A stretch of 64,000 nt of DNA. Origin: the human T2T-CHM13v2.0 reference genome, Homo sapiens. Positions 23,113 to 63,801 of this stretch are shown here, piece after piece. Each line of letters starts with the position of its first letter. The first letter of the stretch is position 1. A model generated the notes under the pieces. It searched no databases. It saw nothing but the letters and a program-made list of their open reading frames with translations, and was not told the origin of the DNA. The position numbers were made by a program, and so were the translations under genes. The stretch lies in assembly GCF_009914755.1 (NCBI RefSeq), contig NC_060938.1; one strand, written 5' to 3'.

Positions 23113-23219
23113 AAAATCACCTCTTTATGATAACTGCTTTCTCCATGCTCCTGATGGACAGCCCCTCTGCACTTGTGATAGAAGAAAAGCTCAGTGGTAC
23201 CTGGACAAAGGCATTGGTG
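23113..23219 (+). CDS. EXD2: EXD2 coding exon (aa 350-386)
   Basis: ttccctgcag|A AAA TCA...GGT G|gtatga; 107 nt; KSPLYDNCFLHAPDGQPLCTCDRRKAQWYLDKGIG; read manually, absent from the ORF track. Confidence 0.95.
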
Positions 23220-23473
23220 GTATGAGATTCAGCTGTCCTTGTTTATCTCTAATTAGGTGCATTGGATGCTGGCAGGAGTGGGGAGTGAGATAAGGAAGAG
23301 GGAGGGATAGAAGAAGGCAGAGAGACCGTGAGATGCATGGGACTGGGTAGGCACAACCCAGAAATCATGTTCTCTGCCAGGCCATAGCAGAGAACAGTGA
23401 AGGTAGTGCTGCTTCTTGGGTGTGGTGGTGGGGGCAGGGGGAGCAGTCAAACACTGATGTCTCTTCTCTTAAG

Positions 23474-23609
23474 AGCTGGTGAGTGAAGAGCCCTTTGTGG
23501 TGAAGCTGCGGTTTGAACCTGCAGGAAGGCCCGAATCTCCTGGAGACTATTACTTGATGGTTAAAGAGAACCTGTGTGTAGTGTGTGGCAAGAGAGACTC
23601 CTACATTCG
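23474..23609 (+). CDS. EXD2: EXD2 coding exon (aa 386-431)
   Basis: ctcttctcttaag|AG CTG...ATT CG|gtgagt; 136 nt; ELVSEEPFVVKLRFEP...KENLCVVCGKRDSYIR; phases match both neighbours. Confidence 0.95.
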
Positions 23610-24641
23610 GTGAGTGCAGCATTGGGCCACCCTGGTTGTCTGTGGCAGATGGAAATTGCTTTTGTAGCCATATGCAGAGCCTTTGGGGGCTGTGGCTGAG
23701 TCTGTCCACTTTGGCTGAGAGGCTTGTTCCTAGTATCCAGCTTCCCCAAGAGCTTTGGTATTCTGCCGCCCTTGCTATAGTGGCCCTTACCCCTCCTGAG
23801 CCGTTTCTCAGTTTCTGGAGTGCAACACCATACTCAGTAATGGTCTGTCATGGGGACAGTGGTTCCCTTTTGCTCATGAAAGACTGAAGACCAGTTCCTT
23901 CAGAAGCTGTGTCCCTCTCATCCTCTCTTGACTGGCTCACCAGCTTTTTGAGCCATGGTTTTATTCATGGAGTATCCAGATGTCCTGAAGCCTGCTCTGT
24001 GTTGTAATACTGTTTCACATCAGGGCCCCTGCACTGTGAGGGTGAGGCTGCCGACTACGTCTGAGTGCCCAGACACTTGGGCTTTCTCCCTGGCTTCTGT
24101 GGAGTCACTCACTTTCCTCCTTTCTCCCCTGCAAAGTGAGACAAAGTCATTGCTGCCAAGAGTTTTTCCTGAGAGCTTAGTTCTCCTTAGAAAATAATGA
24201 TGAACCTGGTGAACCAGGGAAATAGATTAAGGTATTCCTCAGATGAAGGAAATTGGCTTTTTCAGGTTCCTAGGCCTTCTTGAGAGAGTTGTTTTCCAGT
24301 TGTCAAAGGCCATTAGAGTATCTTTTCAGTTCTCTGAGACTTTCCCTTCTGGGAGCACAGCCTTCTCAGAGGTTGTTATTAACCTGTCACTATGCTGGCC
24401 CGCCACTGAAGCCCACAGCAGGTGGTCTGTACTTACTTGCAGGAGAGAGGAAGCTAAGACACAGATGGGCTGAGAGTGGAATAGGTGATACTGCCTTTCT
24501 GTGATCTGTGTTGGGCGGTGGTGCCCAAGGCTTCTCAGTCATGGTTAGGCCCCAGTTAGAACCCCAGTAGCCTGTCTGCTGTCTTCCCATGTGCTCTGTC
24601 ATACACTTATGAGCGCTGCTTTCCGGCTGGGCTTGTTCCAG

Positions 24642-24998
24642 GAAGAACGTGATTCCACATGAGTACCGGAAGCACTTCCCCATCGAGATGAAGGACCACA
24701 ACTCCCACGATGTGCTGCTGCTCTGCACCTCCTGCCATGCCATTTCCAACTACTATGACAACCATCTGAAGCAGCAGCTGGCCAAGGAGTTCCAGGCCCC
24801 CATCGGCTCTGAGGAGGGCTTGCGCCTGCTGGAAGATCCTGAGCGCCGGCAGGTGCGTTCTGGGGCCAGGGCCCTGCTCAACGCGGAGAGCCTGCCTACT
24901 CATCGAAAGGAGGAGCTGCTGCAAGCACTCAGAGAGTTTTATAACACAGACGTGGTCACAGAGGAGATGCTTCAAGAGGCTGCCAGCCTGGAGACCAG
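24642..24998 (+). CDS. EXD2: EXD2 coding exon (aa 431-550), HNH-like region and helical segment
   Basis: ttgttccag|G AAG AAC GTG...ACC AG|gtacaa; 357 nt; KNVIPHEYRKHF...LLLCTSCH. Confidence 0.97.
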
Positions 24999-27950: not shown

Positions 27951-28167
27951 AATCTCCAATGAAAACTATGTTCCTCACGGGCTGAAGGTGGTGCAGTGTC
28001 ACAGCCAGGGTGGCCTGCGCTCCCTCATGCAGCTGGAGAGCCGCTGGCGTCAGCACTTCCTGGACTCCATGCAGCCCAAGCACCTGCCCCAGCAGTGGTC
28101 AGTGGACCACAACCATCAGAAGCTGCTCCGGAAATTCGGGGAAGATCTTCCCATCCAGCTGTCTTGA
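27951..28167 (+). CDS. EXD2: EXD2 last coding exon (aa 550-621 plus stop)
   Basis: gttttggcag|A ATC TCC...LPIQLS TGA, immediately followed by TAG. The seven exons sum to 1533 nt = 510 aa + stop, giving 621 aa when V at 15885 is residue 112. Confidence 0.97.

Positions 28168-63468: not shown

Positions 63469-63801
<333 letters not shown>

What the first reader, a model, noticed from the sequence alone, without database searches (positions are those of the whole stretch)
23135..24750. EXD2 C-terminal region looks like an IshB-type PLMP + HNH module (IscB/Cas9-ancestor family) fused to a eukaryotic exonuclease
Seen: splicing exons 23113-23219, 23474-23609 and 24642- gives aa 358-467 = CFLHAPDGQPLCTCDRRKAQWYLDKGIGELVSEEPFVVKL, a 22-aa spacer, then CVVCG...RKNVIP...HDVLLLCTSCHAISN. 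Recalled knowledge: the N-terminal PLMP (RRXRR) domain of IS200/IS605 IscB reads roughly VxVLDxxGKPLMPCxPAxARxLLKxGKAxVVxxxPFTIxL. The EXD2 segment follows this pattern with essentially no gaps: DGQPLCTC~DGKPLMPC, RKAQWYLDKG~AKARKLLKKG, PFVVKL~PFTIQL. IshB is the short family carrying only PLMP + HNH, with a similarly short spacer before CxxCG. Inference: the C-terminal half of EXD2 may be a domesticated IshB-like module. It could bind structured RNA or RNA:DNA hybrids and steer the DEDDy exonuclease, which raises the question of an RNA partner. An HNH-like label for this region is known to me; I do not recall the PLMP/IshB link being stated.
Basis: partly seen in the sequence, partly recalled or inferred. 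Interest (0 to 1): 0.85.

Follow-up and report, generated by a model that had tools for sequence, protein, structure and literature searches.

The report
PLMP and HNH module in EXD2
The tail half of the human exonuclease EXD2 starts with a small domain related to the 'PLMP' domain of the bacterial RNA-guided nucleases IscB and IsrB, followed by an HNH nuclease domain that has lost its catalytic histidines, and the whole tail has free-standing relatives in very large phages.

Summary

The PLMP resemblance is far above chance:
- Profile-profile comparison with 90 IscB N-termini gives probability 97% and E 9e-11. An IF3-N control gives 4.9%. 200 column shuffles reach at most 15.3 against a real score of 46.8.
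- Pfam RRXRR and NCBIfam guided_IscB are the top, sub-threshold, hits of a mouse EXD2 isoform, exactly on this segment.
- AlphaFold models give strand-strand-helix-strand-strand. Their best PDB matches are IscB and IsrB chains.

New finding: EXD2 aa ~350-612 is one module, made of a PLMP-like part, an HNH part and a helical part. It has 250-300-aa stand-alone homologues in huge phages. Those keep the His-His dyad (51 of 51). Animals carry Lys-Asn there.

The phage genes have no HEARO RNA, and no transposase was seen among the commonest neighbour families. I could obtain no IshB sequence. So PLMP plus HNH is supported, 'domesticated IshB with an RNA partner' is not shown. No paper searched links EXD2 to IscB, PLMP or RRXRR.

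The parts
23135..23218 (+). PLMP-like domain, first part (EXD2 aa 358-385, exon 5): strand 1, the P-L-C-T strand that aligns with the P-L-M-P motif, and the helix
   Evidence: Translation. hhalign alignment to IscB. HMM match at aa 362-400. Predicted secondary structure (mouse isoform residue + 255 = human residue).
23474..23508 (+). PLMP-like domain, second part (aa 386-397, exon 6): strands 3 and 4, ending in P-F-V-V-K-L, which aligns with P-F-T-I-Q-L of IscB
23509..23574 (+). 22-residue spacer (aa 398-419)
   Evidence: It aligns without long gaps with the phage homologues.
23575..23609 (+). HNH-like domain, first part: first Cys pair C420 and C423 (exon 6)
   Evidence: C420 and C423 are invariant in 19 of 19 animal rows.
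24642..24750 (+). HNH-like domain, second part (aa 431-467, exon 7): K432-N433 in place of the His-His dyad, D454, second Cys pair C459 and C462, H463
   Evidence: hhalign to the IscB HNH. The phage members hit Pfam HNH, HNH_2 and DUF968 below cut-off.
24751..24998 (+). Helical C-terminal domain, first part (aa 468-549)
   Evidence: Aligned with the phage homologues. Helices predicted with pLDDT above 90.
27951..28164 (+). Helical C-terminal domain, second part (aa 550-621), with the W-R-x-H-F motif at 28045-28059
   Evidence: W582 is present in all 17 animal rows with a residue there (2 of 19 are gapped) and in 51 of 51 phage rows. The family profile matches this exon at E 5.5e-10.

Best explanation
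EXD2 aa ~355-612 is one compact, inherited module of three parts:
1. A PLMP-type domain (aa 358-397; two strands, a helix, two strands) that is a distant homologue of the N-terminal domain of IscB and IsrB.
2. A four-cysteine HNH (beta-beta-alpha-metal) domain at aa ~418-470.
3. An alpha-helical domain ending in a W-R-x-H-F motif.

The same three-part protein exists on its own (250-300 aa) in huge phages, where the HNH His-His dyad is intact, so there it is most likely an active nuclease. In animals the module is fused behind the DEDDy exonuclease, and the dyad reads Lys-Asn.

Inferred, not shown: in EXD2 the module no longer cuts by the canonical HNH route. It serves as a nucleic-acid or partner-binding arm that brings substrates to the exonuclease. 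The PLMP-like part may bind RNA hairpins or protein partners, as the PLMP domain does in IscB and IsrB.

The module has the PLMP-then-HNH order of IshB. It is not shown to be an IshB or to use a guide RNA.
For: Homology with phage proteins:
- tblastn of a fish EXD2 fragment hits three huge-phage records over 91-95% of its length, E 6e-18 to 2e-8.
- BLASTP of a mouse isoform against a viral-contig ORF gives E 1e-46 and 31% identity over 252 residues.
- 54 viral-contig loci and 2 'genome' loci were found.
- A family profile matches the human genome only at four EXD2 exons, in order.

PLMP link:
- hhalign of the family (70 rows) against 90 IscB N-termini gives probability 97.0, E 9.2e-11 and 45 columns. 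Against IF3-N it gives probability 4.9.
- Whole-family against whole-IscB comparison gave two collinear hits, N-terminal domain then HNH, in the first run.
- Pfam RRXRR is the top hit of mouse isoform P0029 (E 0.021, residues 108-147 against profile positions 6-45). It is hit by 16 of 63 family members at E<=1.
- NCBIfam guided_IscB is the only hit of P0029 at E<=0.1 (E 0.0021, profile positions 2-44). It is also the only hit of a phage member, there on the HNH part.
- My IscB-derived HMM against the human protein gives 13.8 bits, and 0 of 2000 shuffles reach that.

Fold:
- The AlphaFold2 models have pLDDT above 90 over the module. No IscB rows and no templates were used.
- In Foldseek against 350,542 PDB chains, ranks 1-8 are IscB for the mouse model. 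For the phage model IscB takes ranks 1-5, 7, 8 and 10. Setting aside rank 1 (9nvu), which in both runs is a 309-340-column alignment at rmsd 18-21 A, these are 45-50-column alignments at rmsd 1.0-2.1 A.
- IsrB, which has no HNH, is at ranks 12 and 13. 7xht is a delta-HNH construct. So the match is to the PLMP domain.

Dyad: His-His in 51 of 51 phage rows. Lys in 19 of 19 animal rows, followed by Asn in 16 of 19.

Binding role: a preprint maps PABPC1 binding to EXD2 aa 296-408 (passage read). IscB and IsrB papers report that the PLMP domain contacts omega-RNA terminal hairpins (passages read).
Against: - Every database-model hit to RRXRR or guided_IscB is below the curated cut-off: 15.2 bits against 25, and 17.3 against 175.
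- No Foldseek match to the PDB has E<=0.001. The best are 1.2e-3 and 3.2e-3, and those rank-1 rows are long alignments with rmsd 18-21 A. The tool does not print which residues are aligned.
- Only 2 of the 4 P-L-M-P letters are kept in human (P-L-C-T).
- The mammalian HNH part is not detected directly by Pfam (member 1). It is called HNH through the phage members, whose own Pfam HNH hits are also sub-threshold.
- The HNH-to-IscB profile match alone is modest (probability 58-86).
- Loss of nuclease activity is inferred from residues only.
- Binding of RNA or DNA by the module is not tested.
- My IscB set comes from few lineages: two bacterial phyla, plasmids, and closely related viral-contig copies.
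Confidence: 0.72

Rival explanations
1. The module is a domesticated IshB: a gene of an IS200/IS605-type OMEGA element captured by an animal ancestor, which still works with a structured RNA partner that steers the exonuclease.
For: It has the same domain order as described for IshB, PLMP then HNH with no RuvC (review passages). The PLMP homology is supported. In IscB and IsrB the PLMP domain touches omega-RNA hairpins.
Against: - The closest relatives are resident huge-phage genes in conserved gene order. Among 147 neighbour ORFs of 37 loci, no Y1 transposase is among the 25 commonest of 56 matched Pfam families.
- In many of those loci the nearest called upstream ORF overlaps or ends within about 50 nt of the gene, leaving little room for an upstream omega-RNA.
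- HEARO RNA is in 0 of 20 such loci, against 10 of 13 IscB loci.
- The family has an extra ~150-aa helical domain and is 250-300 aa long, against ~180 aa reported for IshB.
- The catalytic dyad is lost in animals.
- No IshB sequence could be compared.
Confidence: 0.12
2. The likeness to PLMP is convergence on a common small strand-helix-strand fold, such as the IF3 N-terminal domain, and not common descent.
For: The domain is only ~45 residues long. The IsrB paper itself reports likeness of PLMP to IF3-N. IF3-N structures appear at ranks 18 and 32 for the phage model. All curated-model hits are sub-threshold.
Against: - hhalign gives 97% against PLMP and 4.9% against IF3-N. PLMP against IF3-N gives 6.4%.
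- Among 24,736 Pfam and 18,950 NCBIfam models, the top hit for this segment is the IscB-type model at matching profile positions.
- Most IscB and IsrB chains match at rmsd 1.0-2.1 A over 45-50 columns, against 3.4-8.3 A for IF3-N.
- An HNH domain follows in both families.
Confidence: 0.08
3. The EXD2 HNH-like domain is still an active nuclease that uses other residues, for example H437, H453, D454 and H463, so EXD2 has a second catalytic site.
For: D454 and H463 are invariant in 19 of 19 animal and 51 of 51 phage rows. H453 is invariant in animals and H437 is present in 15 of 19. The four cysteines are kept. One dragonfly sequence keeps the second His.
Against: Both dyad positions are replaced in 18 of 19 animal rows, while all 51 phage rows keep them. 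None of the 4 EXD2 papers whose HNH passages I opened reports HNH-dependent cleavage. Two call it 'HNH-like' and one an 'HNH endonuclease domain'.
Confidence: 0.1

Closest known systems
PLMP domain of IscB and IsrB (N-terminal part of Pfam PF14239 RRXRR; NCBIfam NF040563 guided_IscB)
   Same: Length of about 45 residues. The same order of strands and helix. Aligned G-x-P-L and P-F-x-[IV]-x-L motifs. Best profile, model-library and fold matches.
   Different: Scores are below the curated cut-offs. The motif reads P-L-C-T in human and L-M-F in most phage members. No RuvC, bridge helix or TAM-interacting domain follows. The RuvC and TI domains that the PLMP domain packs against in IscB and IsrB are absent.
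IshB (OMEGA family, PLMP + HNH, ~180 aa; known to me only from review passages)
   Same: PLMP-type domain followed directly by an HNH domain, with no RuvC.
   Different: There is an extra helical domain, and the size is 250-300 aa. The phage members show no transposon context and no HEARO RNA. The animal copy is fused to a DEDDy exonuclease and lacks the His-His dyad. No direct sequence comparison was possible.
HNH endonucleases (Pfam HNH PF01844, HNH_2 PF13391, DUF968 PF06147)
   Same: Two Cys pairs, an H-H-[IV]-V-P core in the phage members, and a final C-x-x-C-H. At E<=1, 20, 26 and 15 of 63 members hit these models.
   Different: All hits are below the cut-offs. The mammalian copy is not detected directly. 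Asp stands where the Asn of H-N-H is usual.
Stand-alone proteins of huge phages (unnamed; no common Pfam family in the Atlas clusters)
   Same: Full-length homology with EXD2 aa ~350-612, at 31% identity and E 1e-46.
   Different: No exonuclease domain, an intact His-His dyad, and some members lack zinc cysteines.
[quoted passage not shown]
   Same: A similar small fold, as published for PLMP. Weak fold matches at ranks 18 and 32.
   Different: hhalign probability is only 4.9%, and rmsd is higher.

Membership tests
PLMP domain (Pfam PF14239 RRXRR, N-terminal part) | Match to the Pfam model at or above its curated cut-off (25 bits) | tested here: not met
   Mouse isoform P0029 scores 15.2 bits, E 0.021, residues 108-147 against profile positions 6-45. 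It is the top hit of that protein. 16 of 63 family members match at E<=1, best 0.0078. Exon pieces alone give no hit.
PLMP domain (Pfam PF14239 RRXRR, N-terminal part) | Profile-profile homology with the N-terminal domain of bona fide IscB proteins | tested here: met
   hhalign probability 97.0, E 9.2e-11, 45 columns. 200 shuffles reach at most 15.3 against 46.8. IscB identity of the comparison set is backed by RefSeq names and by HEARO RNA in 10 of 13 loci.
PLMP domain (Pfam PF14239 RRXRR, N-terminal part) | Fold: small antiparallel sheet plus one helix, as in solved IscB and IsrB structures | tested here: met
   The predicted order is strand-strand-helix-strand-strand. IscB and IsrB chains are the best PDB matches, most with rmsd 1.0-2.1 A over 45-50 columns (IsrB 2.0-3.0 A; rank-1 9nvu rows 18-21 A), though all E-values are above 0.001. 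These are predicted models, not solved structures.
PLMP domain (Pfam PF14239 RRXRR, N-terminal part) | The P-L-M-P motif itself | tested here: not met
   Human reads P-L-C-T (2 of 4 letters kept). In the phage rows the second and third motif positions (aligned with human L368 and C369) are mostly M (47 of 51) and F (47 of 51).
IshB (OMEGA) | PLMP domain directly followed by HNH, with no RuvC | tested here: met
   Two collinear hhalign hits to IscB, N-terminal domain and HNH, and nothing on the RuvC or bridge-helix parts. The spacer is 22 residues.
IshB (OMEGA) | Encoded in an IS200/IS605-type element | tested here: not met
   37 phage loci and 147 neighbour ORFs were examined. NusG/KOW was found in 10, IMPDH-like in 11, dCMP deaminase in 6 and sigma-70 in 2. 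No transposase is among the 25 commonest of 56 matched families. The tool lists only those 25, so rare neighbours could be missed. Transposon ends were not searched.
IshB (OMEGA) | Adjacent omega-RNA | tested here: not met
   Rfam HEARO is in 0 of 20 family loci and in 10 of 13 IscB loci. Only the described HEARO family could be tested. An undescribed RNA is not excluded.
IshB (OMEGA) | Sequence kinship with true IshB proteins | not tested
   No IshB sequence was obtained. The defining paper is not held. In 80 viral loci and 401 genomes searched with PLMP queries, I examined 7 of the 11 short viral ORFs and all 7 are truncated IscB. The short frames in the genome search were not inspected.
HNH endonuclease | Catalytic His-His dyad before the [IV]-[IV]-P strand | tested here: not met
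   Human has K432-N433. Animals have K in 19 of 19 and N in 16 of 19. Phage members have H-H in 51 of 51.
HNH endonuclease | Two Cys pairs (zinc) and the final His | tested here: met
   C420 and C423 are invariant in 19 of 19 animal rows, as is H463. C459 and C462 are seen in the sequence.
HNH endonuclease | Match to a Pfam HNH model above cut-off | tested here: not met
   Best is PF01844 at E 2.7e-4 among 63 members. The three phage ORFs score 11.4-18.4 bits against a cut-off of 21.4. The mouse isoform has no HNH hit at E<=1.
IscB (RNA-guided endonuclease) | Split RuvC domain with an Arg-rich bridge helix | tested here: not met
   hhalign and NCBIfam matches cover only the PLMP segment (profile positions 2-44) or the HNH segment (184-241) of the IscB model.

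The most novel reading that the evidence does not exclude
The EXD2 tail and its huge-phage and giant-virus relatives are a separate, non-transposon lineage of PLMP-HNH proteins. They are sister to, or older than, the PLMP and HNH parts of IscB and IshB. In animals the PLMP-like domain would still recognise a structured RNA, a hairpin or an RNA end, and so give the DEDDy exonuclease its substrate choice, for example at the mitochondrial outer membrane or on poly(A)-bound viral RNA.
Probability: 0.2. Interest if true: 0.85.

Novelty: new variant of a known kind. Interest (0 to 1): 0.68.

Why it matters

Finding the domain next to an HNH domain in a conserved animal protein and in resident genes of huge phages matters in three ways:
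- It widens the family beyond mobile OMEGA elements.
- It gives a domain assignment to EXD2 aa 358-397, which current schemes leave blank. They show only an HNH-like domain at 408-470.
- It shows that the whole C-terminal 260 residues are one ancient module whose nuclease dyad was lost in animals.

It also turns a vague 'HNH-like' label into testable questions. Does the module bind hairpin RNA? Is PABPC1 binding, mapped to aa 296-408 in a preprint, through the PLMP-like domain? What does the active phage version cut?

Tried and rejected
- Exon-by-exon Pfam and PDB sequence scans found nothing relevant.
- The Pfam RRXRR model over the six-frame human genome did not find EXD2, probably because an intron splits the domain.
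- The fish fragment P0003 gave no Pfam family and only chance PDB hits.
- tblastn of P0003 against plasmids gave one chance-level hit at E 5.
- Microbacterium phage hits at E 9 were ignored as chance.
- PHROGs gave only weak 'HNH endonuclease' hits for 2 of 4 phage members and none for the mouse isoform.
- Search for IshB. A PLMP alignment against viral contigs returned 80 loci. I extracted ORFs from 78 of them: 67 are 406-442 aa IscB and 11 are shorter. The 7 short ones I looked at all carry RuvC-I and a bridge helix, so they are truncated IscB. A PLMP alignment against 401 genomes of one phylum matched 6 genomes. All matches were in frames of 253-595 aa, apart from one broken 90-aa frame.
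- I considered and rejected the top Foldseek row 9nvu_P as evidence by itself. It spans 309-340 columns at rmsd 18-21 A.
- The Atlas searches are leads only. The whole-module search gave unnamed viral clusters at 0.96-0.97. The 53-residue part gave RRXRR clusters at only 0.77-0.79.
- The direction of transfer between phages, giant viruses and animals is not settled. The tree has only a midpoint root.
- Supplementary files of papers were not consulted. The paper that defines IshB is not held, so its supplements may hold sequences that bear on the IshB question.
Full report
OBSERVATION. Joining the annotated coding exons of EXD2 inside a script gives an open frame for aa 112-621. The first coding exon lies upstream of the window. 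The 40-residue stretch spans exon 5 (23135-23218) and exon 6 (23474-23508). A 22-residue spacer follows. Then come the first Cys pair (23575 onward) and, in exon 7, R-K-N-V-I-P, D454, the second Cys pair and H463.

SIMPLE SEARCHES FAIL. The exon pieces alone have no relevant Pfam or PDB sequence match. The Pfam RRXRR model run over the six-frame human genome reports two weak matches on other chromosomes and nothing at EXD2. A 255-aa fish EXD2 fragment (P0003) has no Pfam family at E<=10 and only chance PDB hits. So neither the HNH-like nor the PLMP-like nature can be seen from one animal sequence.

A FAMILY OF STAND-ALONE RELATIVES. tblastn of P0003 against phage records found three uncultured huge phages (595-642 kb). 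The matches cover 91-95% of the query at E 6e-18, 9e-9 and 2e-8. They lie in ORFs of 252-267 aa.

An alignment of these ORFs found 54 loci in viral contigs and 2 in genome contigs. By the contig lengths listed, 19 of the 54 viral loci lie on contigs of 200 kb or more. One of the two genome contigs has the same length and match range as one of the viral contigs.

The homology runs from just before the PLMP-like stretch to the W-R-x-H-F motif near the EXD2 C-terminus. A mouse isoform and one viral ORF share 31% identity over 252 residues at E 1e-46. A profile of the family matches the human genome only at EXD2 exons 5, 6, 7 and 8, in order, at E 3e-6, 3e-7, 4e-28 and 6e-10. That profile includes three animal rows. 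The third protein search gave 99 proteins. They include EXD2 of vertebrates, a spider, a millipede, a mollusc and a dragonfly, and three MAG proteins.

IS THE N-TERMINAL PART A PLMP DOMAIN? I collected IscB proteins in three ways:
- with the Pfam RRXRR model from 301 genomes, 9 of which had a match;
- from viral contigs;
- from RefSeq plasmids, where they are named 'RNA-guided endonuclease IscB'.

HEARO omega-RNA lies in 10 of 13 such loci. In the ones I compared it sits just upstream of the IscB gene.

The results were as follows.
- hhalign of the EXD2/phage family against IscB gave two collinear hits. The N-terminal domain scored probability 87.2 and P 3.9e-6. The HNH scored probability 85.8 and P 5.4e-6.
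- With the domains cut out, the probability is 96.8 and the score 46.8. 200 column shuffles of the IscB domain give mean 8.8, sd 1.9 and maximum 15.3. The reversed profile gives 10.7.
- With 70 family rows (19 animal) and 90 IscB rows, the probability is 97.0, E 9.2e-11, over 45 columns. The same query against 30 IF3-N domains gives probability 4.9. PLMP against IF3-N gives 6.4.
- An HMM of the IscB domain scores the human protein 13.8 bits at aa 362-400. None of 2000 shuffles reaches this.
- Pfam RRXRR is the best hit of the mouse isoform (E 0.021, 15.2 bits, cut-off 25, profile positions 6-45). It is matched by 16 of 63 family members at E<=1.
- NCBIfam guided_IscB is the only hit of the mouse isoform at E<=0.1 (E 0.0021, profile positions 2-44). 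It is also the only hit of one phage member, there on the HNH part.
- The Atlas feature search of the 53-residue part lists RRXRR clusters at 0.77-0.79. That is a lead only.

FOLD. AlphaFold2 was run on family alignments with no IscB rows and no templates. It gave pLDDT above 90 over the module in the mouse isoform (mean 82.7 including a disordered N-terminal 100 residues) and a mean of 91.6 for a phage member. The N-terminal part is strand-strand-helix-strand-strand. This fits the published description of the IsrB PLMP domain as a four-stranded sheet plus a helix (passage read).

Foldseek against 350,542 PDB chains puts IscB structures at ranks 1-8 for the mouse model. For the phage model they are at ranks 1-5, 7, 8 and 10. 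IsrB is at ranks 12 and 13. Apart from the rank-1 rows and IsrB (2.0-3.0 A), these alignments span 45-50 columns at rmsd 1.0-2.1 A. IsrB has no HNH domain and 7xht is a delta-HNH construct, so the shared part must be the PLMP domain.

Three caveats apply. No match reaches E<=0.001. The rank-1 rows are long, poor alignments. The tool does not print the aligned residues. IF3-N appears only at ranks 18 and 32 for the phage model.

THE HNH PART. Phage members hit Pfam HNH, HNH_2 and DUF968, all below cut-off. At E<=1 these are matched by 20, 26 and 15 of 63 members. All 51 phage rows have H-H before [IV]-V-P. All 19 animal rows have Lys at the first position. At the second position 16 of 19 have Asn, and one dragonfly keeps His. 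D454, H463 and the first Cys pair are invariant in animals. By established knowledge of HNH enzymes, the dyad supplies the general base and a metal ligand. I therefore infer that the animal copy does not cut by the canonical route. This is inference only.

CONTEXT, AND THE IshB QUESTION. In 37 phage loci the gene sits in conserved, co-directional gene order. In many loci the nearest called upstream ORF overlaps the gene or ends within about 50 nt of it. Among 147 neighbour ORFs the commonest Pfam families are IMPDH-like (11), NusG/KOW (10), dCMP deaminase (6) and sigma-70 (2). No transposase and no DEDDy exonuclease is among the 25 families listed. HEARO RNA is found in 0 of 20 loci, where only tRNAs were seen.

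IshB is known to me only from review passages: PLMP plus HNH, about 180 aa, an OMEGA member. The defining paper is not held. My searches found no IshB-sized PLMP protein. So the shared domain order is shown, but membership is not.

DISTRIBUTION. The 17 animal rows form one clade (support 100/99) whose inner order follows animal phylogeny. With a midpoint root the clade lies among the much more diverse phage rows, but the root is not established. Three truncated rows were left out of the tree. Predicted structures of giant-virus proteins also match. [quoted passage not shown] Atlas look-alikes are unnamed clusters of 244-295 aa, mostly viral.

HOW IT LIKELY WORKS. Shown: there is a three-part module, it is homologous to phage proteins, its first part is homologous to the PLMP domain, and animals have lost the dyad. 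Inferred: in phages the protein is an active HNH nuclease whose PLMP-like and helical parts hold the substrate. In EXD2 the module is a non-cutting arm that binds nucleic acid or partners and feeds the exonuclease. Two observations fit this. A preprint maps PABPC1 binding to aa 296-408, which contains the PLMP-like domain (passage read). The PLMP domain of IscB and IsrB contacts RNA hairpins mainly without sequence specificity (passages read).

WHAT IS IN PRINT. A predicted HNH-like domain at aa 408-470 is published (figure legend read). It is repeated in two preprints. Full-text searches for EXD2 together with IscB, PLMP or RRXRR found 0 papers each. A five-term search (EXD2, IscB, RRXRR, PLMP, IshB) listed 20 of 27 papers, none of which mentions EXD2. 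The library does not hold most subscription papers, and domain databases could not be queried. The link may therefore exist elsewhere.

VERDICT. The PLMP-plus-HNH reading is supported. The IshB and RNA-partner reading is open and on present evidence less likely. The finding is a new variant of a known kind.

Noticed in passing
no window coordinates; BFVD entries reported: Giant viruses of eukaryotes carry the module. A 659-aa Yasminevirus protein is named as a 3'-5' exonuclease domain protein, apparently the same fusion as EXD2. There are also shorter stand-alone versions in Harvfovirus (247 aa) and Catovirus (183 aa).
   Followed up: no
L036, L041, L044, L060 and relatives (viral and genome contig loci), HNH part: One sub-clade of the phage family has lost zinc cysteines. 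At the position of human C423 the 51 phage rows have C in 30, T in 11 and S in 10. All 51 keep the His-His dyad.
   Followed up: partly
L061 (genome contigs, labelled a Paceibacterota MAG) and L042 (viral contigs): Both come from a contig of 362,763 bases with the same match range. A huge-phage contig seems to have been binned as a CPR bacterium.
   Followed up: no
L171:1744-3182 (Pseudoalteromonas plasmid): A 394-aa 'RRXRR domain-containing protein' lies directly after a group II intron reverse transcriptase. A group II intron RNA match lies just upstream of it, and there is no HEARO RNA.
   Followed up: no
window 63620-63767, + strand: An Rfam Metazoa_SRP match at 70.7 bits, barely over the gathering score of 70. 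It is probably an Alu-type repeat inside GALNT16.
   Followed up: no
L025:2884-6732 and other phage loci: tRNA genes lie close to the phage homologues, four of them in L025 alone.
   Followed up: no
P0003 (icefish partial EXD2), residues ~28-50: The second half of the PLMP-like domain is replaced by an unrelated Cys- and Ser-rich stretch. This is probably a gene-model error in that record.
   Followed up: no
window 23219/23474 and 23609/24642 (exon junctions): Introns split both the PLMP-like domain (between aa 385 and 387) and the HNH-like domain (at aa 431). This explains why six-frame genome searches with domain models miss them.
   Followed up: partly
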